Of a stretch of DNA of 64,000 bases, positions 1,024-33,900 are shown piece after piece; position 1 is the first letter of the stretch, and every line of letters starts with the position of its first letter. Position numbers and translations under genes: made by a program. The stretch is from Patescibacteria group bacterium (GTDB lineage Bacteria; Patescibacteriota; Patescibacteriia; 2-01-FULL-39-33). The stretch is from contig JBAZMW010000002.1 in the NCBI GenBank assembly GCA_041649575.1, positions 148,487-212,486 on the forward strand, read 5' to 3'. The notes under the pieces are model-generated. The model was not told the origin of the DNA. It worked only from the letters and a program-made list of their open reading frames with translations, and searched no databases.

Positions 1024-2181
1024 ATGTCTATTTTAGATCAAGTTAGAAAAAATCAATTTCAGGACAATTTAGCCGGTTTTAATCCCGTGTCCACTCTTAA
1101 TACTTTATTTTCCAGTCTAAGCGACAAAGAAAGAGATGTTGTTAGGCGGCGTTTTGGCTTGGGTACGGATCGCAAATATACCTTGGAAGAAATCGGCAAA
1201 CAATACGGCATTACTCGGGAAAGAGTGCGCCAGATAGAGAGTTTAAGCATCAAAAAATTAAAAGAACTTCAAGAATTGAAAGAAGAAATCGAAAAAGCCG
1301 AAAAAGTTGTGGTTCAGCTGTTGGAGCAGTATGGCGGCGTTATGGAACAAGATTTCTTTTTGGAAAAAGTCCTTAATTATTTAGAGGCCCAAGAAAATAT
1401 CGAGAATGTCTTGTTGTTTTTGGCCGAACACATTTTTTCCGACAATGTCTCCAAGGTCCGCCAGGACAAGGAATTCAATAATTTATGGAGAACCGATAGC
1501 GCCGATGTCACCTCGCTGAAGGATATTGTTAATGAGATGGTCCGAGTGATCAGTCAAAACAATCAGCCCGTTCAGCTGCAGAACTTGCTTAACAGTTTCA
1601 AAGACTCCGAATTCTATCAAAAAAACAAAGATAAAATTCTTTCTCGGGCGGTTTTTTTGGAAGCCACCGAAGAGGACGTGGATAAAATTTTAGAGAGTTA
1701 TCTGCGCGCTAGCCGCAAAATCAAATCCAATTTGTTTGACGAGTGGGGCTTGGTCTCTTGGGGCACTGTTCAACCCAAGAAGATCAATGATAAAATATAT
1801 ATGGCCCTAAAGAAAGCCGGCAAGCCTTTGCATTTCACCGAGATTGCCAATTTAATCAACGAAACCAAGTTCGACGATAAAATCGCTTATCCGCCCACCG
1901 TTCATAATGAATTGATTTTGGATGACAAATATGTTTTGGTCGGCCGCGGTATTTACGCTCTGAAAGAATGGGGCTATAATCCCGGCAATGTGGCCGATGT
2001 TTTAGAGGAAGTGTTAAAGGAAAATGGTCCTTTAACCCGCGACGAAGTTATCGAAAAAGTTTTGGCCAAGCGCCAAGTCAAGAAATCAACCGTCTATTTG
2101 TCGCTGATGAACAACAGCCAGATCAAGAAAAACGAGCAGGGCAAATACTATTTACTGGACGATACTGCCAAAAGTTTATAA
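1024..2181 (+). CDS. Sigma-70 region-4 domain protein with C-terminal HARE-HTH-like domain
   Basis: N-terminus LSDKERDVVRRRFGL...TLEEIGKQYGITRERVRQIE is a sigma-70 region 4 HTH. C-terminus GRGIYALKEWGY resembles the HARE-HTH of the RpoE delta subunit. Confidence 0.6.
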   Translation: MSILDQVRKNQFQDNLAGFNPVSTLNTLFSSLSDKERDVVRRRFGLGTDRKYTLEEIGKQYGITRERVRQIESLSIKKLKELQELKEEIEKAEKVVVQLLEQYGGVMEQDFFLEKVLNYLEAQENIENVLLFLAEHIFSDNVSKVRQDKEFNNLWRTDSADVTSLKDIVNEMVRVISQNNQPVQLQNLLNSFKDSEFYQKNKDKILSRAVFLEATEEDVDKILESYLRASRKIKSNLFDEWGLVSWGTVQPKKINDKIYMALKKAGKPLHFTEIANLINETKFDDKIAYPPTVHNELILDDKYVLVGRGIYALKEWGYNPGNVADVLEEVLKENGPLTRDEVIEKVLAKRQVKKSTVYLSLMNNSQIKKNEQGKYYLLDDTAKSL

Positions 2182-2256: not shown

Positions 2257-3804
2257 ATGGGAATTGAACTTAATTTTGATTTGGCTTCAGTTTGGGAAAG
2301 TTTCGTAATTTTTGCTTCCCAGGATCCAATTACCATTGGCATTCAACTGTTTCTTAAAGGTGGTTGGGTGATTTTTTTAATTGTAATACTGACTGTTTTT
2401 TACGATGCGTGGCTAGATGCCCGCCAAGGCCAGTATGCCGGCAAGTGGCAGCATGTTCTCTTGGCTATCGATATTCCCAAAAACAATGAACAAACACCTA
2501 AGGCGGTAGAAAATCTTTTTGTCGCTTTGGCCGGTACGCAATCCAGCGGCAATTTGATTGATCGTTATTGGCATGGCAAAATACAAGAAAGTTTTTCCTT
2601 CGAAATCGTCAGTCTCGAAGGCTATATCCAATTTTTGGTGCGCACTCCCGTTCATTTCAGGGATCTGGTGGAGGCCGCTGTTTATGCCCAGTATCCGGAA
2701 GCGGAAATCACCGAAGTCGAGGATTACGCCAAGGATTATGCCGGATTGCGTTTTCCCAATGAGCAATATAATTTGTGGGGCACCGAATTGGTTCTGACCA
2801 AGGATTACCCCTATCCCATCAAAACTTATATTGATTTTGAACACACTTTGACCGGCAATTTTTTGGATCCCATGGCGGGGTTATTGGAGATTTTGAGCCG
2901 CTTCGGTCCCGGCGAGCAGCTCTGGCTGCAGCTGGTGGTGACGCCGTGGAAGCCGGACTGGGGCGAAAAAGCCAAAAAAGCCATCAAGACTCTTAAAGGA
3001 GAAAATTATGCTCCGCCGACCACCATAGCCGACAGGATAGCCAAACCAATCGAGTGGTTGGGCACTCAGGCCTTAAATGTCGCTAATGAATTTGCCGGCG
3101 GCGGGGGAGAGGGAGCCAGCAAAAAAGAGGAAGATCAGTGGAAAATGTTCAAACTTACTCCTGGAGAAAGACTGGTTTTTGAAAAAATTCAGCATAAATT
3201 GTCCAAAATTCCTTTCCGGGTGAAATTTCGCATGATTTATTTGGCCAAAAAAGATGTTTTTGCCAAAGGCCGGGGCGTAGCGGCTGTGATTGGCAATATT
3301 CAGCAGTTTAATGTCTCCGACGCCAATGGCTTCAAACCCGGCCCGAAAACCAAGACGGCGGTCGATTATTTTCGCGTTAAGAAAAGATTGGCGGAAAGGC
3401 AAAAAAGGATTTTGCGTCGTTTTATTGGCCGCAGTAATTTTTATGGCGAACCGGTCAGTAATATGTTTTTGAGTACCGAGGAATTAGCCACCCTTTGGCA
3501 TTTCCCGGTGATGACCGTTAAGGCGCCCAGGCTGGAAATGATTGGCTCCAGGCGAGCCGTTCCGCCCACTCGTTTGCCCTACAAAAGTCGTGGTTTTACC
3601 GTTGAAAAAGAGAGAGTTAGAACTTTGGCGGAAAGAGACGGCAGGATTGAAGAAAAAATTGAAGGTTCACTGGAATCTCATCCCCGGTCGCCAAAGTTAC
3701 CAGCGGTAGCGCCGCTGGTTCGGCCGGCCAATTTAACGGACAAATCGACCGAACCGCCGCCGCGAAGAAATCCCGAACCGCCGGCCAACTTACCCACTGT
3801 TTAA
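2257..3804 (+). CDS. Membrane protein (two N-terminal TM helices, large soluble domain); putative partner of the downstream TraD-like ATPase
   Basis: Hydrophobic N-terminus (VIFLIVILTVFY). 13 bp upstream of, and co-oriented with, the coupling-protein-like ATPase. Pro/Arg-rich C-terminal tail. Confidence 0.5.
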   Translation: MGIELNFDLASVWESFVIFASQDPITIGIQLFLKGGWVIFLIVILTVFYDAWLDARQGQYAGKWQHVLLAIDIPKNNEQTPKAVENLFVALAGTQSSGNLIDRYWHGKIQESFSFEIVSLEGYIQFLVRTPVHFRDLVEAAVYAQYPEAEITEVEDYAKDYAGLRFPNEQYNLWGTELVLTKDYPYPIKTYIDFEHTLTGNFLDPMAGLLEILSRFGPGEQLWLQLVVTPWKPDWGEKAKKAIKTLKGENYAPPTTIADRIAKPIEWLGTQALNVANEFAGGGGEGASKKEEDQWKMFKLTPGERLVFEKIQHKLSKIPFRVKFRMIYLAKKDVFAKGRGVAAVIGNIQQFNVSDANGFKPGPKTKTAVDYFRVKKRLAERQKRILRRFIGRSNFYGEPVSNMFLSTEELATLWHFPVMTVKAPRLEMIGSRRAVPPTRLPYKSRGFTVEKERVRTLAERDGRIEEKIEGSLESHPRSPKLPAVAPLVRPANLTDKSTEPPPRRNPEPPANLPTV

Positions 3805-3816
3805 ATTTTCTAAAAA

Positions 3817-5418
3817 ATGACAGAAGAAAGCGTCGAACAAAAAAAAGAAATAACCATTTTTGCCGAAACCAATTTCCGCAACCAGCGGCGCAGTTTTGGT
3901 ATTAAGCGCGATGATCGCCGGCGCCATATGTATATTATCGGTAAGACCGGCATGGGCAAAACCACGCTTTTGGAAAACATGATTATTTCCGATATCATCA
4001 ACGGCGAAGGTTGTTGCTATATTGATCCTCATGGCGATACCGCCGAAAAAATTCTAAATTATATTCCTTCCCACCGGGTTAACGACGTGGTCTATTTCAA
4101 CCCGTCCGATACGGATTTTCCCATCGCTTTCAATATTCTGGAGGCGGTTGACGAAAAAAGCAAGCACTTGATCGCTTCCGGCTTGGTCGGAGTTTTCAAG
4201 AAGCAATTCGCCGACAGCTGGGGCCCGCGTTTGGAATATATTTTAAGAAATGCTATTTTAGCTCTTTTGGATTATCCCGGTAGTACGCTTTTGGGTATCA
4301 TGAGGATTTTGGTTGACGCCGATTATCGCGACAAGGTGATTGAGAAAGTCACTGATCCGGTGGTCAGGTCTTTTTGGACCAATGAATACACCAAATGGAA
4401 CGACCGGGTTTTGCAAGAGGTCATTTCGCCGATTCAAAACAAAGTGGGCCAATTTTTATCTAATTTTTTAATTCGCAACATCGTCGGTCAGGTCAAATCG
4501 ACCATTGATATGCGCGAGATCATCGACAACAAAAAAATAATGATAATGAACTTGTCCAAGGGCCGTATCGGCGAAGACACCATGCAGCTTTTGGGATCGA
4601 TGATTGTCACTAAATTGTATTTAGCGGCCATGAGCCGCGTTGATGTTCCCGAGCAGCAGCGCCAAGATTTTTATCTTTACGTTGATGAGTTCCAAAATTT
4701 TGCTACCGACAGTTTTGCCGATATTTTGTCAGAAGCCAGAAAATATCGCCTGAACCTGGTTATTGCCCACCAGTACATCGAGCAACTGCCGGAGCTGGTG
4801 ACTGCCGCGGTTTTTGGCAACGTGGGCACGCTGATCAGTTTCCGGGTGGGCGCTTCCGATGCCGAGAGCTTGGTGCGGGAATTCACTCCTACCTTTACTG
4901 AAGAAGACCTGGTTAACCTGCCTTCTTTTAATGTCTATCTGAAATTAATGATTGACGGCATTTCTTCCGATCCGTTCTCCGCCACCACTTTACCACCACT
5001 TTTCGACGAAATGATCACCGACAGCAGTGAAAAGGTCATTAAAGTTTCTCGCGAACGTTATGCCCATGGTCGTAAGGTAATAGAAGACAAAATTAACCGC
5101 TGGAGTGGCATTGATCTAAGTGAAAAGTTGGCCGAAGCCACCGTGGGCAAGGGAGTGCCGGTTGTCATTTCCGCTTCCGGCGACGGCGCGAAGAAGAAGA
5201 AAAAAAAGAAGAAAAAGAGCCAGGCCACCGCTGGCAATAATTTTTCCGTGGCCTGCGCTTCCTGCGGCACGCCGGTCAAGCTGAACTTTCAGCCCGATGG
5301 CAAGCGCCCGATTTTTTGCGAGAATTGCCTTAATCAAATGGCCAAAGAAGAAGTCAAGTCCGACGAGGACGATGGCTACCAGAGTTTGGAAGATTTAAAA
5401 AAGATTCTGGGCCGATAA
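3817..5418 (+). CDS. TrwB/TraD/VirD4-family (type IV coupling protein-like) P-loop ATPase with C-terminal poly-Lys tract and CxxC...CxxC zinc ribbon
   Basis: RRRHMYIIGKTGMGKTT matches the RRH-x-GxTGxGK Walker A context of TrwB/TraD. Walker B LYVDEFQNF. Nine-residue Lys run, then CASCG...CENC. Confidence 0.65.
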   Translation: MTEESVEQKKEITIFAETNFRNQRRSFGIKRDDRRRHMYIIGKTGMGKTTLLENMIISDIINGEGCCYIDPHGDTAEKILNYIPSHRVNDVVYFNPSDTDFPIAFNILEAVDEKSKHLIASGLVGVFKKQFADSWGPRLEYILRNAILALLDYPGSTLLGIMRILVDADYRDKVIEKVTDPVVRSFWTNEYTKWNDRVLQEVISPIQNKVGQFLSNFLIRNIVGQVKSTIDMREIIDNKKIMIMNLSKGRIGEDTMQLLGSMIVTKLYLAAMSRVDVPEQQRQDFYLYVDEFQNFATDSFADILSEARKYRLNLVIAHQYIEQLPELVTAAVFGNVGTLISFRVGASDAESLVREFTPTFTEEDLVNLPSFNVYLKLMIDGISSDPFSATTLPPLFDEMITDSSEKVIKVSRERYAHGRKVIEDKINRWSGIDLSEKLAEATVGKGVPVVISASGDGAKKKKKKKKKSQATAGNNFSVACASCGTPVKLNFQPDGKRPIFCENCLNQMAKEEVKSDEDDGYQSLEDLKKILGR

Positions 5419-5486: not shown

Positions 5487-6035
5487 ATGTGGTCTGTTGT
5501 TTGGCAAGCTTTTTATTTGGCCTGGCCGGCTTATTTGGCCAATATGGCGCCGGTTATTTTCAAAAATTTTGGTTGGTTAAAATTTTTGGATCGGCCGATA
5601 GATGGCGGCAAAAAATTCGGCGGTGATTATCTTTTTGGACGGCACAAGACTTGGCGCGGGCTCCTGGCCGCTATCGTCGGCGGAGCTTTGGCCAGCTTTT
5701 TTCAGCTGATTCTTTATCGTTATCAGTTTTTCAGTTCTTTTTCTCTTTTTGACTACAACCAGCAGTGGCTGCTGGTCGGTTTACTTGGTGGTCTGGGCGC
5801 TATCCTGGGTGATTTGGCAAAAAGTTTTTTCAAACGTCGCCTGAAGATCGCCTCGGGCCGGTCTTGGCCGGTTTTTGACCAGTTGGATTTTATTTTTGGT
5901 TTTTTTGTTTTTGTTTATCTAACAGTCAGGCCGCCACTATTAGTGGTTGTCGTTGTTTTTCTAATCACCCTTATTCTTCATCCTTTGACTAATGTTTTTG
6001 CTTATCTTTTGAGATTTAAAAAAGTTTGGTGGTAA
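5487..6035 (+). CDS. CDP-archaeol synthase-like (CarS/DUF46) integral membrane protein
   Basis: GRHKTWRG motif and polytopic membrane profile typical of the CarS/CTP-transferase-like DUF46 family. Confidence 0.55.
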   Translation: MWSVVWQAFYLAWPAYLANMAPVIFKNFGWLKFLDRPIDGGKKFGGDYLFGRHKTWRGLLAAIVGGALASFFQLILYRYQFFSSFSLFDYNQQWLLVGLLGGLGAILGDLAKSFFKRRLKIASGRSWPVFDQLDFIFGFFVFVYLTVRPPLLVVVVVFLITLILHPLTNVFAYLLRFKKVWW

Positions 6036-6040
6036 TCAAG

Positions 6041-6934
6041 ATGAAAAAAGCGTTAATTATTTTTAACCCCACCGCCGGCCTGGTTAGCAGACAGGATGTC
6101 CGCGGGCTGGTGGAAAAAAAATTGAAAGAGCTGGGCTTCGACTGGGAATTGTTTTTGCTTAACTCGGAGTTTGAAAAAAATATCTCCAGCTTTGATTTTT
6201 CCGGGCTCAAGTTGGTGGTGGCGGTGGGCGGTGACGGCACGATCAAGGTGGCGGCCCGCACCATTTTAAAAAACAAACTGACTTGCCCGTTGGCGGTCGT
6301 GCCTTTTGGTTCGGCCAATGTGATAGCTTCCACCCTGGCCATCCCCATTAGTATTAAAGAAGCTTTAAAGCTTTTAGACAAACCTAGTACCAAAAAAATC
6401 GACGTCGGCCTGATTAATGGCAACCGTTATTTTTTGGTCGGTTTTTCCTTGGGCTATATCTCCGACATCGTTATTAATACCGGCAAAGGACTGAAAAATC
6501 GTTTTGGTATGCTGGGCTATTTTTGGCGATTATTTTTTAATAAAATCAGAATCTCCCGGCTTAAATTCAAAATCCAAACCCGCAACAGGACTTTCTGGCT
6601 CAAGGGCAATAGCCTGATAATTTTTAACGCTTTCAATTATTTTGGTTTCCGGCCCAAAAGGCCTATCAGCATCAGCGACGGCATTTTTAATCTCTACGTC
6701 ATTACTAATAAGACTTTTTTTTCTTTGATCCGGGCTGGATTTTATATCCTGCTCTACCACCAGCCGCCGCGTTATGTTTTTACTTTGGATAATAATTTCT
6801 TTAGAATAACTCTGCGCCGTCAACACTTTCTCAAAACCGCTCAAATCGACGGCGATCATCTCAATTTGCCGCGGGAAATAATCATCGAGGTATTGCCCCG
6901 GGCGCTAGAAATGGTGGTAAAAAATAATGGCTAA
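6041..6934 (+). CDS. Diacylglycerol/lipid kinase catalytic-domain protein (YegS/BmrU-like)
   Basis: ALIIFNPTAG...VAVGGDGT matches DAGK_cat signatures. Start taken at the internal ATG (MKKALIIF), which avoids overlap with the upstream gene. Confidence 0.65.
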   Translation: MKKALIIFNPTAGLVSRQDVRGLVEKKLKELGFDWELFLLNSEFEKNISSFDFSGLKLVVAVGGDGTIKVAARTILKNKLTCPLAVVPFGSANVIASTLAIPISIKEALKLLDKPSTKKIDVGLINGNRYFLVGFSLGYISDIVINTGKGLKNRFGMLGYFWRLFFNKIRISRLKFKIQTRNRTFWLKGNSLIIFNAFNYFGFRPKRPISISDGIFNLYVITNKTFFSLIRAGFYILLYHQPPRYVFTLDNNFFRITLRRQHFLKTAQIDGDHLNLPREIIIEVLPRALEMVVKNNG

Positions 6935-8045
6935 AGAAAAAGTGGTAGTAGCGATGAGTGGTGGCGTTGATTCCTCCGTCGCTGCGGCCTTACTCAAAAA
7001 ACAAGACTATGAAGTGGTTGGAGTTTTTATGCAGTTTTGGTTTCCCTTGTCTCGCCAGGGACAAGCGGAGGCGGGCTCGTTTACTAAAAATAAAACCATT
7101 CAGTCAAGTATAAATACCAAGGTTTACGAAGAAAACCGCTGTTGTAGTTTGAGGTCTTGGAACGAAGCGCAACAAGTGGCGCGAATTCTGGATTTTCCTG
7201 TTCGCAAGGTAAATTTCGGACGGCAATTCAAAAAACTGATTGTTGATGAATTTTTGCGTGAGTACAGACTGGGTCGCACTCCCAACCCTTGTGTCGCTTG
7301 CAATAAATTTATCAAATTTGATTTGTTGTTGAAATATGCGAGAACTGTTTTTGGTGCGGATTATTTGGCTACCGGGCACTATGCTAGCTTGGTGTCATTC
7401 AAATTAGGACGGCCCAAAGACAGACAAAAAGACCAGACTTATTTTTTGTATAATTTAAAACAAGCACAATTAAAGCACCTGCTTTTTCCGCTTGGTAATT
7501 ATACTAAAAATGAGGTCAGAAAATTGGCTAAGAAGTTTAAGCTGCCGGTTTTTGATAAGCCGGACAGCCAGGAAATCTGTTTTGTGGGGCAGTCACATTA
7601 TGATTTTTTGAAGAAATATTTGCGCTTACAGCCGGGTAAAATCATTAGCAACCAAGGAAAAATATTGAGAACGCATCAGGGTCTGCCCTTGTATACCCTG
7701 GGCCAAAGGAGCGGCTTGGGGCTTTCGGGCGGACCGTGGTATGTGGCTGAAATGGATTATAAAAAAAATCGGCTGGTTGTCACCAAAAAAGAAAAGCAGT
7801 CAGCAATCTTTCGAAAAGAATTAGTCGCCCAAAAAGTTAATTGGCTTTTTGGCGAACCAAAATTTCCTCTCATATGCCAGGCGCAAATTCGTTATCATGC
7901 CCGGTCGGCCAGTTGTCTGGTGAAAAAGCAGGACCAAAAGATTGTTGTTGAATTCAGGCAAAAGCAGCGGGCGATAATGCCCGGCCAATCTGTGGTTTTT
8001 TATCAAGGTGATGAGCTGTTGGGCGGGGGAGTGATAGTGGGTTAG
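6927..8045 (+). CDS. mnmA: tRNA-specific 2-thiouridylase MnmA (with extra insert after the PP-loop region)
   Basis: VVAMSGGVDSSVAA PP-loop, CCS..., NPCVACN and TGHY motifs. Confidence 0.9.
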   Translation: MAKEKVVVAMSGGVDSSVAAALLKKQDYEVVGVFMQFWFPLSRQGQAEAGSFTKNKTIQSSINTKVYEENRCCSLRSWNEAQQVARILDFPVRKVNFGRQFKKLIVDEFLREYRLGRTPNPCVACNKFIKFDLLLKYARTVFGADYLATGHYASLVSFKLGRPKDRQKDQTYFLYNLKQAQLKHLLFPLGNYTKNEVRKLAKKFKLPVFDKPDSQEICFVGQSHYDFLKKYLRLQPGKIISNQGKILRTHQGLPLYTLGQRSGLGLSGGPWYVAEMDYKKNRLVVTKKEKQSAIFRKELVAQKVNWLFGEPKFPLICQAQIRYHARSASCLVKKQDQKIVVEFRQKQRAIMPGQSVVFYQGDELLGGGVIVG

Positions 8046-8153
8046 TACAGAAGGAGTCAGGTTAATAATAAAAAAAGAAGACAAAGATCGGGCAGAAGAG
8101 GTTTTAGAAATTGGTAATAAGTAAATTATTAATAATAAACAAAGATTTAACGT

Positions 8154-8182
8154 TTGACATAATTTTGAAAGCATAATAAGAT
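8154..8182 (+). promoter_or_regulatory. Promoter TTGACA-17-TAAGATAAT driving a GC-rich cassette
   Basis: TTGACA at 8154-8159, 17-bp spacer, TAAGAT at 8177-8182. The same motif recurs at 9196. Confidence 0.55.
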
Positions 8183-8284
8183 AATATATCTTTCTCCAGA
8201 GAGAATGATTCATAGTCCACTTGTGGTGGAAGATGATTGCACAAAAGACAAGGGAACAGGAACCCAAGAAGGAGGCTGTACGTC

Positions 8285-9106
8285 ATGATTAAAAGAACCG
8301 TCGTGGGGCGACTTTTCCGTGATTCTGGCGCATTCGGCCAGTTGACGCCGCCGCCCGGTCTGGAGGGAACCATTGGTGATCCCGATTGGGATTTCTTCTC
8401 GAAGCTGCCGCCGCGTTTTGATTTTCTGGAACTCTGCGATCGGGTCGGCCACGCTTTTGAGATGTCCGAGTCACCCATCTCGCCCTCCGACTGGGAGGAC
8501 CAGTTCGAAAGTCAGAAGGAGCGGCTGCTCGCTCTGTCCGGCTGCTCTGATGGCCATGGCATCGTGCTTTTGCCCGGCCTATTGCCAGTGGCTCCCGGTG
8601 ATTGTATCAGGAAGAGCCTTTTCAATGTCTACATCCCGGCGGTAGAACGCGGCTACGGGGCGATCTATCCCAAGAGGGCTTTTGAGGATTGGTGTGATGG
8701 TCGGGCGGACAGTGTCGCGGCTTTTCCCGGAGTGGGCCACGAGCATCTAATCCACCTCGCCAGTAAAGGCTTGGTCGCCGTCTTCGTCTACATCGCCCAT
8801 TGTATGCGGGCGTGGCCCGTCTCGACCCAGCGCCGACTGCCACGGAAGTTGTTCAAATCGAATTTCTCCTTGGCCGGCGGCTGTGACACGCTTTCCGTCC
8901 TGTCTCTGCACCCTGATATTCTCGCCGCTGGTTTCTGTAGCCCGACGATCGAGCTCAGTGCCTTGCAGACAGATTCGCCGCGCCTCTCGATCTGCGTGGT
9001 GCCAGAAGACAAACGCCTCAGACTCGACATCTGGGGTAATCCCGACGATTTCGCGCCTGAAGCTTCAGGAGGGCTTTCGTTCTGGAAGGAGCAACCTGTC
9101 TTCTAG
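8285..9106 (+). CDS. Hypothetical protein, G+C-rich (foreign-looking) gene
   Basis: Long ORF in a sharply GC-rich segment. AAGGAGG sits 7 nt upstream of the ATG at 8285. No recognisable motifs. Confidence 0.5.
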   Translation: MIKRTVVGRLFRDSGAFGQLTPPPGLEGTIGDPDWDFFSKLPPRFDFLELCDRVGHAFEMSESPISPSDWEDQFESQKERLLALSGCSDGHGIVLLPGLLPVAPGDCIRKSLFNVYIPAVERGYGAIYPKRAFEDWCDGRADSVAAFPGVGHEHLIHLASKGLVAVFVYIAHCMRAWPVSTQRRLPRKLFKSNFSLAGGCDTLSVLSLHPDILAAGFCSPTIELSALQTDSPRLSICVVPEDKRLRLDIWGNPDDFAPEASGGLSFWKEQPVF

Positions 9107-9195
9107 CTGGCGCGCCTTAGCCGGCTGCCGGAGTTCTCTAATTGGGGCTAGTGATCATACCAATCACCGGCCTCTGTTTTTTGTTTTAAGCGTAG

Positions 9196-9224
9196 TTGAC
9201 ATTGATAATGAAAACCCTTAAGAT
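9196..9224 (+). promoter_or_regulatory. Promoter TTGACA-17-TAAGATAAT (second copy)
   Basis: TTGACA at 9196-9201, 17-bp spacer, TAAGAT at 9219-9224. Same architecture as the promoter at 8154. Confidence 0.55.
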
Positions 9225-9277
9225 AATCTTTCGATCTTTCAAGTTAAACTAGTAAGGCAACCATGGAGGGAGCTGCC

Positions 9278-10015
9278 ATGTTTCTGGTATTATTTTCCAT
9301 TCTGGTCTACCCAGTGGCCTTTGTCACCTTCGTCGTTTGCGCCTCAATCTACCTGGCGTTTGTCTTTGTCTTCAAGTCGCTGGGCTGGGAGCTGCAGTAC
9401 CTGGGGCCGTTGGTTCGGTTTCTGGCTCGCGTGATTCTCTTGAGTTGTGGCCAATGGCTCAAGGTTGGGGGCAACTGGCCCTCTCCGACTATCGGGCCTT
9501 GCATCTTTCTCTTCAACCACAGCTCTATCCTGGATGCTCTGGTGGCTGGCGCGGTGCTAAAAGGACGGTTCACTGGCGTGGCTGCCCAGGAGTATTTCTT
9601 TTGGCCGCTGTGGGGAACCATTATGCGCTGGCACAATATCATTCCCATCAAGCGCAAGTGCCACGACGAGGCCATAGAGAGCATGCGGCGGGCGGAAGAG
9701 GCGATAAAAAACGGCTGGTCAATAGGCGGCTTTCCCGAGGGCACCAGAAGCAAGACAGGAGAGTTGCAGCCGTTCAAAAAGGGCCTTTTCTATGTGGCCA
9801 AGGCCACGGGCGCGCCGATCGTGGTGATAGCCATCAAGGGGGCGTACCGTGCCAAGAGTCGCGTCGGTTGGTGTGTTCGGCCGGGAGTGATAACGGCCAC
9901 TATCGGCAAACCCTGGACCCTGTGGTCTAACGGAAAGCAACGGTATGCGGCCTTGTCGGTGGAAGAGTTAAGGCAACTGGCCGAAGGGCTCATGGCAACC
10001 ATGCTCGAAAGTTGA
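9278..10015 (+). CDS. 1-acyl-sn-glycerol-3-phosphate acyltransferase (PlsC/LPLAT family), G+C-rich
   Basis: NHSSILD (HxxxxD) and FPEGTRS acyltransferase motifs. N-terminal TM. GGAGGGAG RBS before the ATG at 9278. Confidence 0.75.
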   Translation: MFLVLFSILVYPVAFVTFVVCASIYLAFVFVFKSLGWELQYLGPLVRFLARVILLSCGQWLKVGGNWPSPTIGPCIFLFNHSSILDALVAGAVLKGRFTGVAAQEYFFWPLWGTIMRWHNIIPIKRKCHDEAIESMRRAEEAIKNGWSIGGFPEGTRSKTGELQPFKKGLFYVAKATGAPIVVIAIKGAYRAKSRVGWCVRPGVITATIGKPWTLWSNGKQRYAALSVEELRQLAEGLMATMLES

Positions 10016-17520: not shown

Positions 17521-20500
17521 ATGCCAGAAAAAGGACTATCTTTAAATGCCGAGCAACAAGCCGCGGTTCTTCATGATCAAGGGCCGCTTTTAATCGTGGC
17601 TGGCGCCGGCACCGGCAAAACCACGGTGATTACCGAAAGAATAGCTTATTTGATAAAAAACAAAAATTGCCGGCCGGAGGAAATTTTGGCCCTAACCTTT
17701 ACCGACAAAGCCGCCGGTGAAATGGAGGAGAGAGTCGATCGTCTTTTGCCTTACGGTTATGTCGATTTATGGATTCACACCTTTCACGCTTTTGCCGAAA
17801 AAGTTTTACACGACCACGGCCTGGAAATTGGTCTGCCCAATGATTTTAAGCTGCTCAGTACCACCGAGCAATGGCTTTTGGTTCGTCAAAATTTGGAAAA
17901 ATTTCCACTGGATTATTACCGGCCGCTGGGCAACCCGGTCAAGTTTATCCATGCCTTGTTAAAACATTTTTCGCGCGCCAAGGACGAGAATATTTCTCCC
18001 GCAGATTATCTAAATTATGTCCAGGAATTAAAGCTTAATGCCGATGGCGCAGAATTTATTAAAACCATCATCGACGAAGAGACCAAAAAACAATTAAGCA
18101 AAAAAGAACTTAAAGAAATTTTGGCCCAGGAAATCGCCAAGCAGACAGAGGTGGCCGAAGCCTATCACAGCTATCAGCAGTTGCTTTTGGCCAACAGCGC
18201 GCTGGATTTTGGCGATCTAATCAATTACGCCCTGAAACTCTTTACCACCAGAAAGAATATTCTTTTGAAATACCGCAACCAGTTCAAATATATTTTGGTT
18301 GATGAATTTCAAGACACCAATTACGCTCAATATGAATTATTGAAGCTTTTGGTCGGGCCTCAAAGCAACCTGACGGTGGTCGGCGATGACGACCAGTCGA
18401 TTTATAAGTTTCGGGGCGCTTCCATTTCCAATATTTTACAGTTCAAAGACGATTATCCGCAGGCCAAAGAAATTTTTCTCAACCAGAATTACCGCAGTTG
18501 TCAGAATATTTTAGATTTGGCTTATCGTTTTATCAAGCAGAACGATCCTTATCGTTTGGAAGTCAAGCTGGCTGGCGCCAGACAGCTTTCCAAAAAGCTC
18601 TCGGCTCAAAAGGACGGCCAAGGGGAAATCATTCATCTCCATGGCCGCCAGTTGGCCGACGAAGTGAAACTGGTGGTGGAAAAAATAATCAAGCTTTATA
18701 ACAACTCTCAAGCCGTCTCCTGGTCGGACTTCGCCGTTCTGGTTCGAGCCAATTCCAGCGCCGATGATTTTTGCTACGCTCTGGAAATGGCTGGCGTTCC
18801 TTTTAATTTTGTCGCTTCCAAGGGCCTCTATTCCAAGGCGGTGGTTTTGGATCTTTTGGCATACCTGAAACTATTGGACAATTATCACGAGGGGCCGGCT
18901 ATGTATCGCTTTTTGACGTTGCCGGTTTGGCAGATAAGTCAGAGCGATATCGTCAACTTGAATTATTGGGCCAAGAGGAAAGGCCAGTCGCTTTATGAGA
19001 CTCTCAAGCAGTCGGCGGCTCTAAACAATTTTACCCCAGATTTCCAGAGGCAGATTGGTCAGCTTTTGGCGGTGCTGGAGAAGCACGCCCAGCTGGTCAG
19101 AGAAAACAAAAAAACCACCGAAATTGTCCAAGCTTTTCTGGGCGACACCGGATATCTGAAGCAGCTTTCGGCCACGGATTCTCTGGCCAGTCGCGAACAG
19201 CTCGGCTATCTCAATCAGTTCTATAAAAAAATCCAAAATTTTGAACAGACTAGCGCCCACAACTCGGTTAAAGATTTTTTGTCTCTGGTGGAGCTGGAGC
19301 TGGAAGCTGGCGAAGAGGGGAGTTTGGAGGTCAACCTGGAGGAAGAAGGCCCCGATACCGTGAAAATCATGACCATTCATGCCGCCAAAGGCTTGGAATT
19401 CAAATATGTTTTTATCTCTAATTTGGTTGACAAGCGTCTGCCGACAATCGAGAGAAAAGACCCGATAGAATTGCCGGACAAGCTGGTCAAAGAAATTATT
19501 CCCGAGGGCGATATTCATTTACAGGAAGAGAGACGGCTGATGTATGTGGCCATGACTCGCGCCAAAGACGGTCTGTACCTGACTTCGGCCGCTGATTATG
19601 GCGGCGTCAGAAAAAAGAAACTCTCTCGTTTTCTGACGGAGCTTGCCGATTTGGGTTTGCCGCTGGCGGCCGAAATCAAAGCCGAGAGAGTCGGCGATTT
19701 GTCGGCCCGCCGACCTGCTCTAAGCGATAAGACCAGAGAAAAGGCCCCCGGCTTTTTACCCAGTAAATTCTCTTTTACCCAACTCAAGGCTTTTGAGAGC
19801 TGCCCTTATCAATATCGCTTCGCCCATGTCTTGAAGATCCCAGTCAAAGGCAAGGCCCAATTTTCTTTTGGCAAAAGCATGCACGGAACTTTGCAGAAAT
19901 TTTTTCTGTTGCTTAAGACCAAGCAAAACAAACGCCAGGGTGATTTGTTCGGCGCTAAAGATGGCAGTTCTGTCGAGGCCAGCGAAGCCGAGCTCTTAAA
20001 GATTTATCAAGAGACTTTTATCGACGATTGGTATGCCAGCAGAAAGGAGCGTGACGAATATTTTGCCAAAGGCCAGAGGGCGCTTAAAGGATTTTTTGCC
20101 CTGCACCAGCTCAACTGGCCAAGGGTGGCGGCGCTGGAACAGTCTTTTAATTTTAAGATTGCCGACGGCGGCGTTTATACTCTTTACGGTTTTATGGATC
20201 GTCTCGACGAGGTCGAGGGCGGCCTAAGAATCGTCGATTATAAAACCGGCCAGGCCAAAACCAAACTCTCCCCGGAAGACAAGGAACAGCTTTTGATTTA
20301 TCAGCTGGCGGCCGAAAAGGTGCTGGCCGAAAAAGTCAAAGAGTTGGTTTTCTATTATCTCGATGAAAACAAAGCGGTTTCTTTTTTGGGCGACGATAAA
20401 GAGCTGGCCGCTCTAAGGAAAAAAATCATGGCCATCATAGATGAGATCAAAAAAGGGGAATTCCCGCCCAAGCCGGGAGAAATCTGCAAGTATTGTGATT

Positions 20501-20532
20501 TTAATGGTATTTGCGAATATCGTTATAAATAA
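17521..20532 (+). CDS. UvrD/PcrA-family SF1 helicase fused to a C-terminal PD-(D/E)xK (Cas4/AddB-like) nuclease domain with Cys cluster
   Basis: GAGTGKTT Walker A and UvrD motifs (VDEFQDTN, GDDDQSIYKFRGA). C-terminus MDRLDEVEGGLRIVDYKTG...CKYCDFNGICEY. Confidence 0.8.
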   Translation: MPEKGLSLNAEQQAAVLHDQGPLLIVAGAGTGKTTVITERIAYLIKNKNCRPEEILALTFTDKAAGEMEERVDRLLPYGYVDLWIHTFHAFAEKVLHDHGLEIGLPNDFKLLSTTEQWLLVRQNLEKFPLDYYRPLGNPVKFIHALLKHFSRAKDENISPADYLNYVQELKLNADGAEFIKTIIDEETKKQLSKKELKEILAQEIAKQTEVAEAYHSYQQLLLANSALDFGDLINYALKLFTTRKNILLKYRNQFKYILVDEFQDTNYAQYELLKLLVGPQSNLTVVGDDDQSIYKFRGASISNILQFKDDYPQAKEIFLNQNYRSCQNILDLAYRFIKQNDPYRLEVKLAGARQLSKKLSAQKDGQGEIIHLHGRQLADEVKLVVEKIIKLYNNSQAVSWSDFAVLVRANSSADDFCYALEMAGVPFNFVASKGLYSKAVVLDLLAYLKLLDNYHEGPAMYRFLTLPVWQISQSDIVNLNYWAKRKGQSLYETLKQSAALNNFTPDFQRQIGQLLAVLEKHAQLVRENKKTTEIVQAFLGDTGYLKQLSATDSLASREQLGYLNQFYKKIQNFEQTSAHNSVKDFLSLVELELEAGEEGSLEVNLEEEGPDTVKIMTIHAAKGLEFKYVFISNLVDKRLPTIERKDPIELPDKLVKEIIPEGDIHLQEERRLMYVAMTRAKDGLYLTSAADYGGVRKKKLSRFLTELADLGLPLAAEIKAERVGDLSARRPALSDKTREKAPGFLPSKFSFTQLKAFESCPYQYRFAHVLKIPVKGKAQFSFGKSMHGTLQKFFLLLKTKQNKRQGDLFGAKDGSSVEASEAELLKIYQETFIDDWYASRKERDEYFAKGQRALKGFFALHQLNWPRVAALEQSFNFKIADGGVYTLYGFMDRLDEVEGGLRIVDYKTGQAKTKLSPEDKEQLLIYQLAAEKVLAEKVKELVFYYLDENKAVSFLGDDKELAALRKKIMAIIDEIKKGEFPPKPGEICKYCDFNGICEYRYK

Positions 20533-32950: not shown

Positions 32951-33019
32951 ATGTTTCCTCGCTCCTCAATGTTTTCCACCATAGTCCTAGCAAGCCACCG
33001 TTGCTAAGGTACTAATTAT

Positions 33020-33049
33020 ATTATACCCCATAAACCCAAAACTTGTCAA
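33020..33049 (-). promoter_or_regulatory. Promoter TTGACA-18-TATAAT (minus strand) overlapping the 5' end of the divergent ftsQ-like gene
   Basis: Reverse complement reads CTTGACAagttttgggtttatggggTATAAT. Confidence 0.5.
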
Positions 33050-33054
33050 GAGAA

Positions 33055-33900
33055 ATGATAGAAGACAAAAACCAATTTAATTACCGGCCGAAAATTCAGG
33101 TCAAAAAGGATTATTACCGCCAGCGCTTTATCAATCCTTATTTTAATAAGGATAAAAAAAATAAATACCAGGGTTTCAACACCAGATTTTATCTAAAAAT
33201 TTTAGTGGCGGTTTTTTTGTTGTACCTGATAGTTTACAGTGATTTATTCAAGATAGGGGAGATAAGCATTTCCGGCACCGATATGATCAGCCAAACCGAA
33301 TTTCGGCAAATGGTGGAAAAGGAAATAAATACCTGGCGTTGGCATTTTTGGCCGCAGAGGAACCAGCTTTTGCTTAGTAAAAAACGATTGGCGCAAAAGA
33401 TCACCAGCCAATACAGTCTTAGTAAGCTGGAAATAAAAAAGGGTTGGCGCCGGCTGCAAATCAATCTGGAAGAAAAAATTTCTTACCTGATGGTTTTTAA
33501 TCGCGGCAAGTTTTACTTTACCGACGCCTGGGGCAATGTCACCCGGGAAATTTCTCCGGAGGAAGCCCAAAAATACTGGACCAGATTTCCCATTTTAAAC
33601 ACCGACCAAGAACGGGTCGATATCGGCAGCCAGATAACTTCCGAAAAAATGGTTAATTTCATTTTGGCTCTCAGTGGAAAGATAAAAGAAATGAAGCTGG
33701 CCATCTCTGGCTACGAGAGTCGGGGACAGGAGGAAGTGTCTCTGGTGGCCAAAGCCGGCTGGCGGGCTTATTTTGATATTGACTCCGATGTTGCCAAGTC
33801 CGTGGAAAACTTGGAATTGGTACTGAAAGAAAAAATCAAAGACCAGAAAAATTTGCAATATATTGATTTACGTTTCGGCGATAAGATTTATTACAAATAG
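33055..33900 (+). CDS. ftsQ: Cell division protein FtsQ/DivIB-like (TM plus POTRA)
   Basis: Single TM (ILVAVFLLYLIVY), then a POTRA-like region (IGEISISGTDMISQTEFRQMV). Confidence 0.65.
   Translation: MIEDKNQFNYRPKIQVKKDYYRQRFINPYFNKDKKNKYQGFNTRFYLKILVAVFLLYLIVYSDLFKIGEISISGTDMISQTEFRQMVEKEINTWRWHFWPQRNQLLLSKKRLAQKITSQYSLSKLEIKKGWRRLQINLEEKISYLMVFNRGKFYFTDAWGNVTREISPEEAQKYWTRFPILNTDQERVDIGSQITSEKMVNFILALSGKIKEMKLAISGYESRGQEEVSLVAKAGWRAYFDIDSDVAKSVENLELVLKEKIKDQKNLQYIDLRFGDKIYYK

What the first reader, a model, noticed from the sequence alone, without database searches (positions are those of the whole stretch)
2257..5418. Type IV coupling-protein-like ATPase (TrwB/TraD/VirD4 family) with a detached membrane partner, embedded in a housekeeping region
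The 533-aa protein has the TrwB-type P-loop context RRRHMYIIGKTGMGKTT and a DEFQNF Walker B, but lacks the N-terminal TM helices of canonical coupling proteins. The immediately upstream 515-aa protein supplies two N-terminal TM helices and a large soluble domain, which may be a split arrangement. The ATPase ends with a KKKKKKKKK tract and a CxxC...CxxC zinc ribbon. No relaxase or other T4SS genes are seen nearby, so this may be a DNA-translocation/uptake machine repurposed in a reduced genome rather than a conjugation module.
Basis: partly seen in the sequence, partly recalled or inferred. Interest (0 to 1): 0.55.

Follow-up and report, generated by a model that had tools for sequence, protein, structure and literature searches.

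The report
Split membrane-tethered T4SS coupling-type ATPase
Two adjacent genes in this ultra-small (Patescibacteria) bacterium encode the two halves of a protein that related bacteria make as one chain: a membrane-anchored domain plus a motor ATPase of the kind that feeds cargo into type IV secretion systems. This is a real, conserved variant of a known machine part whose cargo is still unknown.

Summary
ORF A (2257-3804, 515 aa) and ORF B (3817-5418, 533 aa) exist, and B is a TrwB/VirD4-type (T4CP) P-loop ATPase. This is shown by Pfam (above cutoff), by profile alignment to TrwB (95.8%) and by fold search (TrwB first, E 4e-13).

B has no TM helix. A has one clear N-terminal TM helix, not two, and a DUF8128 cytoplasmic domain.

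The "split" idea is strongly supported:
- B follows A in 71 of 80 species-level genomes, with a gap of about 3 nt.
- In 89 of 92 single-chain Patescibacteria proteins, the A profile and the B profile match collinearly.
- A's conserved last residues (EPPANLPTV) followed by B's first residues reproduce the uninterrupted junction of those proteins.

The poly-K run is not conserved; the zinc ribbon is (117 of 120 homologs).

B's lineage includes single-chain forms encoded inside origin-proximal T4SS loci (4 of 4 examined). The pair is therefore most simply a relocated, split coupling protein of the non-conjugative Patescibacteria T4SS. A T4SS-independent role is not excluded.

A's fold resembles VirB4 (Foldseek only; no sequence support). 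Orphan T4CP homologues in this phylum were already published in 2025; the split, the DUF8128 partnership and the Bacillus-phage relatives appear undescribed.

Verdict: new variant of a known kind, moderate interest.

The parts
2257..3804 (+). Gene A: bitopic membrane protein with a DUF8128 (PF26449) cytoplasmic domain. It is the N-terminal 'half' of the split protein.
   Evidence: ORF. The identical NCBI protein carries a precomputed PF26449 label. There are 3,175 clusters at 50% identity. AF2 model: pLDDT 74 overall, core 80-95.
2335..2415 (+). A's N-terminal TM helix (about residues 27-53). The predicted orientation is N-out, C-in.
   Evidence: Kyte-Doolittle peak of 2.22 and an AF2 helix at 24-62. 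Single-chain homologs have one N-terminal TM followed by K/R-rich sequence. The topology is inferred from the positive-inside rule.
2446..3516 (+). A's DUF8128 soluble core (about residues 64-420), an alpha/beta fold that includes a ferredoxin-like beta-alpha-beta-beta-alpha-beta unit.
   Evidence: AF2 model. Foldseek gives TrwK/VirB4 chains as the top 13 PDB hits (E 6.7e-4, prob 1.00, TM 0.28). In BFVD it matches phage G gp156 at 1e-17 and the VirB4-like gp155 at 2e-5.
3562..3582 (+). First PPxRLP motif (PPTRLPY, residues 436-442) at the end of the DUF8128 domain.
   Evidence: P437, L440 and P441 are invariant in 34 homologs. The motif is present in 89 of 120 homologs.
3583..3774 (+). Disordered spacer of A (about residues 443-506).
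   Evidence: pLDDT below 50. Absent from single-chain homologs.
3775..3801 (+). A's C-terminal EPPANLPTV motif, which corresponds to the junction motif of single-chain homologs.
   Evidence: 112 of 120 A homologs end in PxNLP plus at most 4 residues. It aligns with 'EPPANLPI' immediately before the ATPase in P0417, P0421 and P0483.
3802..3816 (+). Fission point: TAA stop plus a 12-nt spacer. A and B are in the same reading frame here.
   Evidence: Sequence. In 62 related loci the gap has a median of about 3.5 nt and occurs in all three frames.
3817..5418 (+). Gene B: soluble TrwB/VirD4-type (T4CP family) P-loop ATPase with a C-terminal linker and zinc ribbon.
3940..3963 (+). Walker A motif (GKTGMGKT, residues 42-49).
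   Evidence: Invariant in 36 homologs.
4153..4527 (+). All-alpha insertion (residues 113-237) at the position of the T4CP all-alpha domain.
   Evidence: AF2 helices H113-237. The hhalign alignment to TrwB runs through this region. Foldseek aligns 414 of 420 TrwB residues, TMt 0.60.
4672..4689 (+). Walker B motif (YLYVDE, residues 286-291).
   Evidence: D290 and E291 are invariant.
5110..5235 (+). Disordered basic linker (residues 432-473) that contains the K9 run (nt 5191-5217).
   Evidence: pLDDT below 50. In homologs the linker is 32-141 aa with K+R about 22%, and the K-run is not conserved.
5242..5340 (+). CxxC-x17-CxxC treble-clef zinc ribbon (residues 476-508).
   Evidence: Pfam zf_Tbcl_2, 36.8 bits against a cutoff of 27. 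TIGR04272 scores 35.1 against a cutoff of 36. The motif is present in 117 of 120 homologs.

Best explanation
A and B are the two halves of one machine part: a membrane-tethered ATPase of the type IV coupling protein (T4CP) family.

Shown:
- In many Patescibacteria the same protein is a single chain with the order TM helix, DUF8128 domain, T4CP-type ATPase.
- In this lineage (ABY1-type Patescibacteria) the gene was cut in the linker just after a conserved PPxNLP motif. This produced a tightly coupled two-gene operon.
- B keeps intact Walker A and Walker B motifs and the all-alpha domain typical of TrwB/VirD4.

Inferred:
- A sits in the cytoplasmic membrane, N-out and C-in, and holds its DUF8128 domain in the cytoplasm.
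- B assembles as a hexameric motor and is recruited to the membrane by A. The contacts would be the DUF8128 domain and possibly A's flexible tail ending in PPANLPTV.
- B's C-terminal disordered basic linker and zinc ribbon occupy the position where TraD, DotL and Cagbeta carry their substrate- or adaptor-recruiting extensions. They probably bind the cargo or an adaptor (nucleic acid or protein).
- The pair most likely acts as the substrate receptor and energising ATPase of the chromosomal, relaxase-less Patescibacteria T4SS, which is encoded elsewhere in the genome. B's lineage includes single-chain forms encoded inside T4SS loci.
For: Family assignment of B:
- Pfam TrwB_AAD_bind 44.6 bits (cutoff 20.5) and TraG-D_C 24.2 (cutoff 22).
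- hhalign to R388 TrwB gives 95.8% probability over 263 columns, but only the P-loop aligns to TrwK/VirB4.
- Foldseek ranks TrwB first (E 4e-13, TMt 0.60), then DotL and Cagbeta, with the VirB4 C-terminal domain at 2e-8.

A-B partnership:
- B lies directly downstream of A on the same strand in 71 of 80 species-level genomes. The median gap is about 3.5 nt and occurs in all frames.
- PHROG 5156 matches A with its N-terminal part and B with its C-terminal part.
- Phage G gp156 aligns to A over residues 15-270 and to B over residues 381-756.
- In 89 of 92 Patescibacteria single-chain proteins both profiles match collinearly.
- The junction alignment is uninterrupted across A's C-terminus and B's N-terminus.

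Topology: one N-terminal TM followed by K/R-rich sequence in the single-chain forms.

T4SS link:
- P0483, P0488, P0442 and P0462 are 52-53% identical to B and fall in the same NJ lineage.
- All four lie beside PrgI-like, TraC-like, VirB4-like, M23 peptidase and T4SS_pilin genes next to dnaA-dnaN.
- ABY1 genomes carry TrsD-VirB4 and VirB2 arrays plus distant T4CP genes (PMC12102498 Table S3).

Precedent for a two-partner T4CP: pIP501 TraI anchors the TM-less TraJ.
Against: - No T4SS gene lies within the window, or within the flanks fetched (up to 8 kb on each side) of the pair in any of 80 related loci.
- Published counts give T4CP homologues in 2,918 of 3,035 genomes but VirB4 in only 2,417. 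Some genomes therefore have the ATPase without a detected T4SS, although MAG incompleteness blurs this.
- The T4CP homologue of S. epibionticum is reported as non-essential while the T4SS is essential. That homologue is probably the other paralog.
- The T4SS-locus forms lack both the TM helix and the zinc ribbon, so B has acquired features that suggest a modified role.
- B is unusually conserved (55-85% identity across orders) and sits in a fixed secF...mnmA-alaS housekeeping block, as expected for a core cellular function.
- The physical A-B interaction, hexamer formation, ATPase activity and the substrate are all untested.
- The tree is NJ without support values.
Confidence: 0.55

Rival explanations
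1. The pair is a T4SS-independent housekeeping motor. It would be a membrane-tethered nucleic-acid translocase derived from a coupling protein and working on its own, for example in chromosome or plasmid segregation at division, or in DNA export or import. This is essentially the first reader's 'repurposed' idea.
For: - The gene order secF-(sigma r4/HARE-HTH)-A-B...mnmA-alaS is fixed in dozens of species.
- There is never a T4SS neighbour.
- B is very strongly conserved.
- T4CP homologues are more widespread than VirB4: 96% against 80% of genomes.
- B gained a basic linker and a zinc ribbon that the T4SS-locus forms lack.
- Single-chain paralogs sit next to dnaX or gyrBA.
- Bacillus-phage relatives sit in ParM/ParA partition modules and not in T4SS modules.
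- The authors of PMC12102498 raise exaptation themselves.
Against: - B's lineage contains forms encoded inside T4SS loci.
- T4CP genes are commonly unlinked from virB4 even in true conjugative systems.
- Proximity to housekeeping genes is weak functional evidence in tiny genomes.
- No specific alternative pathway is indicated by any conserved neighbour.
Confidence: 0.27
2. A plus B is better described as a split VirB4-like ATPase (N-terminal domain plus ATPase) than as a coupling protein. It would be a second assembly or energising ATPase of the T4SS, or an evolutionary intermediate between VirB4 and VirD4.
For: - The top 13 PDB matches of A's model are all TrwK/VirB4 chains (E 6.7e-4, prob up to 1.00).
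- A's model also matches phage G gp155, a VirB4-like protein with the P-loop_TraG domain (E 2.2e-5).
- The domain order, N-terminal domain then ATPase at about 800 aa in total, is that of VirB4.
- The annotators of phage 0105phi7-2 report an HHpred match of the fused homolog's C-terminal domain to TrwK.
Against: - B's sequence profile aligns to TrwB over 263 columns but to TrwK only at the P-loop, and to the Patescibacteria VirB4 only around Walker B (27.6%).
- Foldseek prefers T4CPs (4e-13) over the VirB4 C-terminal domain (2e-8).
- No profile-level similarity links A to TrwK, TrsD, gp155, the Patescibacteria TraC-like protein or the VirB4 N-terminus.
- The TM-scores of the A-TrwK match are low (0.16-0.31), and the aligned region of TrwK could not be inspected.
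Confidence: 0.1
3. The pair is an anti-phage defence or mobile-element module, with B as a HerA- or mad8-like ATPase and A as a membrane sensor.
For: - B's best PADLOC hit is mad8 (61 bits), with weaker HerA and DndH hits.
- Foldseek finds HerA and DndH with E of 1e-11 to 6e-9.
- Distant relatives occur in phages.
Against: - MADS is an eight-gene operon, and none of the other genes is here.
- The locus is a fixed, vertically inherited housekeeping block in at least 71 species, unlike defence islands.
- Pfam DUF87 is below its cutoff (22.9 against 23.2).
- There is no nuclease, SIR2 or methyltransferase partner.
Confidence: 0.03
4. A and B are unrelated neighbours, or the split is an assembly or frameshift artefact or a pseudogene.
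For: In this window the two ORFs are in the same frame and separated only by TAA plus 12 nt.
Against: - The split recurs in 71 of 80 independent genomes, with gaps in all three frames and different stop codons.
- Both products are highly conserved full-length proteins.
- A's terminal motif is conserved in 112 of 120 homologs.
Confidence: 0.02

Closest known systems
TrwB / VirD4 / TraD type IV coupling proteins (Pfam TrwB_AAD_bind; PDB 1E9R, 1GL6)
   Same: B has the same FtsK/HerA-superfamily P-loop core with an inserted all-alpha domain. It passes the Pfam cutoff, aligns to TrwB by profile at 95.8%, and matches TrwB best by fold. It also has a C-terminal extension where T4CPs carry their substrate- or adaptor-binding tails.
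   Different: - B has no TM domain of its own.
- It is only 19-20% identical to TrwB and TrsK.
- It is far below all NCBIfam TraD/VirD4 equivalog cutoffs.
- It is paired with a DUF8128 protein that canonical T4CPs lack.
- No relaxase or T4SS genes are nearby.
- It carries a zinc ribbon.
Single-chain DUF8128-T4CP proteins of Patescibacteria, including those in origin-proximal T4SS loci (for example P0483, P0462, P0421)
   Same: They are direct homologs of A plus B in one polypeptide. They match collinearly to both profiles, share the PPANLP junction, and are 52-59% identical to B in the ATPase.
   Different: - They are a single chain.
- The T4SS-locus forms have no TM helix and a shorter DUF8128 match.
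- None of the seven single-chain forms inspected has the zinc ribbon.
- The window's version is split, relocated to a housekeeping block, and has a 65-aa disordered spacer in A.
pIP501 TraI-TraJ two-partner coupling protein
   Same: It has a TM-less VirD4-like ATPase (TraJ) and a separately encoded membrane protein (TraI) proposed as its anchor (PMC12857230, PMC13037476). This is the same logic as A anchoring B.
   Different: TraI is a small two-TM protein without a large soluble domain. It belongs to a plasmid conjugation operon with a relaxase. Homology between TraI and A was not tested.
VirB3-VirB4 (TrwM-TrwK of R388; PDB 7O42, 8RTD)
   Same: Both have a small TM element, an N-terminal domain and a C-terminal FtsK/HerA-type ATPase. 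A's predicted fold hits TrwK first.
   Different: There is no sequence-level similarity of A to any VirB4 N-terminus, TrsD or TraC-like protein. B is closer to T4CPs than to the VirB4 C-terminal domain.
PHROG 5156 proteins of Bacillus phages (phage G gp156, D6E ORF23, CampHawk_129, 0105phi7-2 gp033)
   Same: They have the same two-domain architecture in one chain. The PHROG profile hits both A and B, and gp156 is the best viral structural match of A (1e-17).
   Different: They are only 20-28% identical in the ATPase. gp156, the only phage form checked for TM segments, has no N-terminal TM helix. They are embedded in plasmid-like partition or replication modules, or sit next to a VirB4-like gene. 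Their function is unknown.

Membership tests
Type IV coupling protein (VirD4/TrwB/TraD) | FtsK/HerA-superfamily P-loop domain with intact Walker A and Walker B motifs | tested here: met
   GKTGMGKT at 42-49 and YLYVDE at 286-291, invariant in 36 homologs.
Type IV coupling protein (VirD4/TrwB/TraD) | Match to the family model (Pfam TrwB_AAD_bind) above the curated cutoff | tested here: met
   44.6 bits against a cutoff of 20.5, covering residues 32-344. TraG-D_C scores 24.2 against 22.
Type IV coupling protein (VirD4/TrwB/TraD) | All-alpha domain inserted in the nucleotide-binding domain, with overall fold similarity to TrwB | tested here: met
   AF2 helices at 113-237. hhalign to TrwB gives 95.8% over 263 columns. 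Foldseek puts TrwB first at E 4e-13, TMt 0.60.
Type IV coupling protein (VirD4/TrwB/TraD) | N-terminal transmembrane anchor in the same polypeptide | tested here: not met
   B has no TM segment. The TM helix is on the separately encoded protein A.
Type IV coupling protein (VirD4/TrwB/TraD) | Genetic linkage to relaxase or mating-pair-formation (virB4) genes | tested here: not met
   None in the window or in 1.15 Mb around 80 related loci. Met only for related single-chain forms.
Type IV coupling protein (VirD4/TrwB/TraD) | Equivalog-level match to named TraD/VirD4 families (NCBIfam) | tested here: not met
   Best scores are 49.7 bits for SXT_TraD (cutoff 366) and 47.5 for conju_CD1115 (cutoff 250).
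Type IV coupling protein (VirD4/TrwB/TraD) | Hexamer with a central channel, DNA-dependent ATPase activity, and substrate recruitment to a T4SS | not testable with these tools
   Requires biochemistry, cryo-EM or multimer prediction.
DUF8128 (Pfam PF26449) | Match to the family model | tested here: met
   The collection's precomputed Pfam hits label the identical protein P0001 and nearly all homologs with PF26449.1. UniRef names a homolog 'DUF8128 domain-containing protein'. The session's own Pfam-A scan returned no family for A at E ≤ 0.1, so the assignment rests on that precomputed label.
VirB4 (N-terminal domain plus ATPase) | N-terminal domain homologous to the VirB4 N-terminal domain (CagE_TrbE_VirB, TrsD, TraC-like) | tested here: inconclusive
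   Foldseek of A hits TrwK chains (E 6.7e-4, prob up to 1.00, TM 0.16-0.31) and gp155 (2e-5). There is no Pfam hit and no hhalign signal to TrwK, TrsD, gp155, TraC-like or the Patescibacteria VirB4.
VirB4 (N-terminal domain plus ATPase) | ATPase domain of VirB4 type (AAA_10 / P-loop_TraG) | tested here: not met
   No AAA_10 or P-loop_TraG hit. hhalign to TrwK matches the P-loop only, and to the Patescibacteria VirB4 gives 27.6% over 90 columns.
HerA / DUF87 | Match to DUF87 above cutoff, with HerA as the best structural relative | tested here: not met
   DUF87 scores 22.9 against a cutoff of 23.2. HerA structures rank below the TrwB chains, which hold ranks 1-29, and are interleaved with DotL and Cagbeta (1e-11 against 4e-13 for TrwB).
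FtsK/SpoIIIE | Match to FtsK_SpoIIIE above cutoff | tested here: not met
   15.8 bits against a cutoff of 24, P-loop only.
MADS anti-phage system (mad8) | Part of an eight-gene mad1-mad8 operon | tested here: not met
   B scores 61 bits to the mad8 model, but MADS is an eight-gene operon and the neighbours here are secF, a sigma-like gene, a CarS-like gene and a lipid kinase.
Two-partner T4CP (pIP501 TraI/TraJ type) | TM-less VirD4-like ATPase with an adjacent, separately encoded membrane anchor | tested here: met
   The arrangement is shown. Anchoring itself is inferred. Homology of A to TraI was not tested.

The most novel reading that the evidence does not exclude
DUF8128 would be a true homolog of the VirB4 N-terminal domain. 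The DUF8128-T4CP family would then preserve an ancestral architecture, VirB4-like N-domain plus VirD4-like ATPase, that links the two T4SS ATPase families. In this lineage the split, zinc-ribbon-bearing version would have left the T4SS to become a near-universal, T4SS-independent nucleic-acid motor of Patescibacteria, with cousins that Bacillus phages use in plasmid-like maintenance modules.
Probability: 0.18. Interest if true: 0.72.

Novelty: new variant of a known kind. Interest (0 to 1): 0.46.

Why it matters
The Patescibacteria T4SS is the first T4SS shown to be essential for its bearer's epibiotic growth. Its cluster in S. epibionticum was described as lacking a recognisable coupling protein and relaxase (PMC10633639). 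The abundant orphan T4CP homologues of the phylum were left as 'possibly exapted' (PMC12102498).

This analysis shows that those homologues belong to one DUF8128-T4CP family. The family occurs inside T4SS loci in some classes and as a conserved split operon in others. That gives a concrete candidate for the missing receptor ATPase. It also gives defined handles for finding the cargo: the zinc ribbon, the basic linker and the PPxNLP tether.

If DUF8128 is confirmed as a VirB4-type N-domain, this would also inform how VirB4 and VirD4 diverged. The Bacillus-phage relatives offer a cultivable system in which to test function.

Tried and rejected
- **Sequence-level link of A to VirB4-type N-domains.** hhalign of the A profile found nothing against R388 TrwK, pSK41 TrsD, phage G gp155, a Patescibacteria TraC-like alignment or a Patescibacteria VirB4 alignment (probability 1.5% or less). 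The VirB4 resemblance therefore rests on Foldseek alone.
- **PDB sequence search with A.** No hit.
- **tblastn of A against phage records.** No hit at E ≤ 0.01, although the pairwise BLAST and the structure match to gp156 are significant.
- **Literature search for DUF8128.** No paper found.
- **Defence-system reading (PADLOC mad8/HerA).** Rejected on context.
- **Poly-K as a functional element or slippery site.** Rejected because it is not conserved.
- **Test of whether A's terminal PxNLP motif tracks the presence of an adjacent B.** Not discriminating: 6 of 8 loci without B keep the motif.
- **Apparent re-fused A-B ORFs in L053 and L060.** These turned out to be a separate lineage-2 paralog upstream.
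- **Small ORFs upstream of single-chain forms as possible TM anchors.** They have no TM segment.
- **Complex prediction of A with B.** Not possible with the tools available.
- **R388 accession BR000038.** Absent from the collection; NC_028464 was used instead.

Full report
**1. What is there**

The window carries two co-directional ORFs: A (2257..3804, 515 aa) and B (3817..5418, 533 aa). They are separated by TAA plus 12 nt and happen to be in the same frame. Identical proteins exist in NCBI for a 235-kb contig of a 'Patescibacteria group bacterium' MAG. A is annotated as hypothetical and B as 'type IV secretion system DNA-binding domain-containing protein'.

- B has Walker A GKTGMGKT (residues 42-49) and Walker B YLYVDE (286-291). 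It has no TM segment. It carries a K9 run (459-467) and a CxxC-x17-CxxC ribbon (C480, C483, C501, C504).
- A has one strong hydrophobic helix (about residues 27-53) preceded by a weakly hydrophobic helix. It then has a folded region of about 360 residues and a disordered Pro-rich tail.

A has one clear TM helix, not two. The poly-K run is not conserved: the median longest K-run in 93 homologs is 2. The basic disordered linker and the zinc ribbon are conserved, the ribbon in 117 of 120 homologs.

**2. What B is**

- Pfam puts B in TrwB_AAD_bind (44.6 bits, cutoff 20.5), with TraG-D_C (24.2, cutoff 22) and zf_Tbcl_2 (36.8, cutoff 27). DUF87 and FtsK_SpoIIIE fall below their cutoffs.
- NCBIfam gives only sub-threshold TraD/VirD4 hits.
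- A 36-sequence profile of B aligns to R388 TrwB with 95.8% probability over 263 columns that include the all-alpha domain. It aligns to R388 TrwK/VirB4 only at the P-loop.
- The AF2 model (pLDDT 74.7) shows a RecA-like core with a helical insertion at residues 113-237.
- Foldseek ranks TrwB first (E 4e-13, TMt 0.60), followed by HerA, DotL and Cagbeta. The VirB4 C-terminal domain scores only 2e-8.

B is thus a coupling-protein-type ATPase, but a very divergent one. It is 19-20% identical to TrwB and TrsK.

**3. What A is**

A carries Pfam DUF8128 (PF26449) according to precomputed annotation. The session's own Pfam-A scan returned no family for A. The family is large:
- more than 2,100 close homologs;
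- 3,175 clusters at 50% identity, 1,042 of them with E ≤ 1e-30;
- at least 590 species-level GTDB genomes.

The AF2 model (core pLDDT 80-95) gives TrwK/VirB4 chains of the R388 T4SS as its 13 best PDB matches (E 6.7e-4, probability up to 1.00, but TM only 0.16-0.31). Among viral models it matches phage G gp156 (1e-17) and also gp155 (2e-5). Pfam shows gp155 to be a VirB4-like ATPase.

I could not confirm this at the sequence level. Profile comparisons of A with TrwK, TrsD, gp155, a Patescibacteria TraC-like family and the Patescibacteria VirB4 all failed. The resemblance to a VirB4 N-terminal domain is therefore a lead, not a result.

**4. A and B are one protein cut in two**

Three independent lines support this.

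(i) *Synteny.* B lies directly downstream of A, on the same strand, in 71 of 80 species-level genomes. One of the nine exceptions is a contig end. The stop-to-start gap has a median of about 3.5 nt and occurs in all three frames. This excludes an assembly artefact and suggests translational coupling.

(ii) *Fusions.* PHROG 5156 (824 positions) matches A at positions 75-290 and B at positions 405-804. Phage G gp156 (825 aa) aligns to A over residues 15-270 and to B over residues 381-756. Within Patescibacteria, proteins of 725-1,140 aa carry DUF8128 plus TrwB_AAD_bind. In 89 of 92 of them the A profile matches about residues 10-390 and the B profile about residues 390-820.

(iii) *The junction.* 112 of 120 A homologs end in PxNLP plus at most 4 residues. 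A's '...EPPANLPTV' followed by B's 'MTEES..ITIFAETNFRN..FGIK..DRRRHMYIIGKTG' aligns without interruption to 'EPPANLPI-EENVP..LTVFAKTDYRH..FGIK..DRRYHMYAIGKTG' of the single-chain proteins.

The fission therefore fell in the inter-domain linker. A additionally gained a disordered spacer of about 65 aa, and it has a second PPxRLP copy at the end of the domain.

Most single-chain forms start with one TM helix followed by K/R-rich sequence. By the positive-inside rule this puts DUF8128 in the cytoplasm, next to the ATPase.

**5. Relatives and contexts**

A rough NJ tree of ATPase domains (no support values) groups the sequences as follows.

| Group | Members | Identity to B |
|---|---|---|
| Lineage 1 | Split B proteins; Berkelbacteria single-chain forms; TM-less ~727-aa subfamily | 57-59% (Berkelbacteria); 52-53% (~727-aa forms) |
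| Lineage 2 | Falkowbacteria, Saccharibacteria and Berkelbacteria single-chain paralogs | 41-46% |
| Phage/Bacillales | gp156, D6E ORF23, CampHawk_129 and relatives | 20-28% |
| Outgroups | TrwB, TrsK | 19-20% |

- All four ~727-aa forms I looked up lie inside an origin-proximal T4SS locus. The order is dnaA-dnaN, M23 peptidase, VirB4-like (P-loop_TraG/AAA_10), TraC-like, PrgI-like, then divergently the DUF8128-T4CP gene, with T4SS_pilin genes about 8 kb away.
- Lineage-2 forms sit next to dnaX or gyrBA.
- In Berkelbacteria the two paralogs are in tandem next to secDF.
- In 3 of 80 split-pair loci the lineage-2 paralog lies 6-8 kb upstream.
- The split pair itself is never near T4SS genes. No VirB4, TraC-like, PrgI-like or pilin homologs occur in the window or in 1.15 Mb of flanks. 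It lies in a conserved block secF-(sigma-70 r4/HARE-HTH protein)-A-B...mnmA-alaS.
- The rest of the window is housekeeping.
- In Bacillus phages the fused gene sits in plasmid-like modules with ParM or ParA, a 'replication-relaxation' protein, or an integrase, or it follows the VirB4-like gp155.

**6. What was already known**

- Quiñonero-Coronel et al. 2025 (PMC12102498) found 5,713 VirD4-type T4CP homologues in 2,918 of 3,035 Patescibacteria genomes. Only 148 were near virB4. VirB4 was present in 2,417 genomes, and relaxases were almost absent. They noted that the T4CP homologue of S. epibionticum is non-essential and that exaptation 'cannot be ruled out'.
- Their Table S3 shows ABY1 genomes with TrsD-VirB4 pairs, VirB2 arrays and one or two distant T4CPs.
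- Wang et al. 2023 (PMC10633639) described the essential S. epibionticum T4SS as lacking recognisable coupling and relaxase proteins.
- A two-partner T4CP is known from pIP501, where TraI is proposed to anchor the TM-less TraJ (PMC12857230, PMC13037476).
- No paper in the library mentions DUF8128.

Orphan T4CP-like ATPases in this phylum are therefore known. The following appear undescribed:
- the obligatory DUF8128 partner or domain;
- the conserved gene fission and its junction motif;
- the two paralogous lineages;
- the presence of the same family inside T4SS loci;
- the Bacillus-phage relatives.

**7. How it most likely works**

*Shown:* two-gene operon; single-chain equivalents; intact catalytic motifs; T4CP fold.

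*Inferred:*
- A anchors a hexameric B motor to the cytoplasmic face of the membrane through DUF8128 and perhaps the tethering PPANLP tail.
- B's flexible basic linker and zinc ribbon occupy the place of the substrate- or adaptor-binding C-terminal extensions of TraD, DotL and Cagbeta, and likely bind cargo or an adaptor.
- The assembly serves the chromosomal, relaxase-less T4SS encoded elsewhere, as its lineage-1 relatives in T4SS loci suggest.

I give about 0.85 to the split-complex architecture and about 0.5 to the T4SS link, for 0.55 overall.

The main rival (0.27) is a T4SS-independent housekeeping nucleic-acid motor. It is favoured by the fixed housekeeping synteny, the very high conservation of B (55-85% identity), the wider distribution of T4CP than of VirB4, and the acquired zinc ribbon.

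A 'split VirB4-like ATPase' reading (0.10) depends on the unconfirmed fold match of A. Defence-system and artefact readings are essentially excluded.

**8. Verdict**

This is a real, conserved feature. The 'repurposed DNA-uptake machine' claim remains open. I rate it a new variant of a known kind, of moderate interest (0.46). The upside is that DUF8128 may prove to be a VirB4-type N-domain, or that the pair may prove to be the missing coupling component, or an independent motor, of Patescibacteria.

Noticed in passing
window 1024-2181 (+): A 385-aa protein with sigma-70 region 4 (60 bits) and a HARE-HTH domain, with no other sigma regions. It lies directly upstream of gene A in 52 of 80 related genomes. 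In the remaining genomes secF is usually the upstream neighbour instead.
   Followed up: partly
window 5487-6035 (+), 6026-6934 (+), 9263-10015 (+): A CarS-like protein passes the NCBIfam equivalog cutoff for archaeal CDP-archaeol synthase (156 bits against a cutoff of 148). It is followed by a DAGK-type lipid kinase and, further on, a PlsC-type acyltransferase. This is an archaeal-type lipid enzyme homolog in a bacterial genome.
   Followed up: no
window 8001-10000; ORF 8237-9106 (+): This stretch has GC 0.535 against 0.40-0.48 around it. The 289-aa TTG-start ORF inside it has no Pfam match, and several overlapping ORFs occur on both strands. It could be foreign DNA, or the ORF may not be a real gene.
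   Followed up: no
window ~33000-35000; ORF 34003-34968 (+): Cumulative GC skew peaks near 33-34 kb, and the genes switch from the + strand to mostly the - strand there. A Xer-type tyrosine recombinase is encoded at the switch. This looks like the replication terminus.
   Followed up: partly
window 52965-60887 (-): Four paralogous Peripla_BP_6 substrate-binding proteins (52965-54116, 55053-56102, 56127-57254, 58021-59127) lie with two Liv-type permease genes. This is an expanded amino-acid uptake cluster.
   Followed up: no
window 17521-20532 (+): A 1,003-aa AddA-type protein with a UvrD helicase domain and a C-terminal PD-(D/E)XK nuclease domain.
   Followed up: no
L001:1196-5338 (Bacillus phage G gp155-gp156): The jumbo phage encodes a VirB4-like ATPase (P-loop_TraG) immediately followed by the fused DUF8128-T4CP-like protein. 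This amounts to a pair of T4SS-type ATPases in a phage.
   Followed up: partly
L085:1759-7284 (phage CampHawk); L086:3657-7558 (phage 0105phi7-2); L002:918-6839 (phage D6E): In Bacillus and Geobacillus phages the fused homolog sits with ParM or ParA partition genes, a 'plasmid replication-relaxation protein', or an integrase. This suggests a plasmid-like maintenance or DNA-handling module.
   Followed up: partly
L092:2432-8348 (Berkelbacteria contig): Two single-chain DUF8128-T4CP paralogs (829 aa and 937 aa) lie in tandem, separated by a 173-aa ORF and adjacent to secDF. The lineage-2 paralog also lies 6-8 kb upstream of the split pair in L023, L053 and L060.
   Followed up: partly
L041, L065, L067, L072, L075, L077 (A at about 7965-9450 in most): In a subclade, gene A is followed by a glycosyltransferase-like gene and two large unannotated ORFs instead of B. 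These A proteins still end in PPxNLP, so B or another partner may be encoded elsewhere.
   Followed up: partly
L096:6808-7464 (-), L097:6881-7522 (-): In Patescibacteria T4SS loci, a 213-218-aa 'TraC-like' (PF26593) protein sits directly upstream of the VirB4-like ATPase. It probably corresponds to the TrsD homologues reported in PMC12102498.
   Followed up: partly
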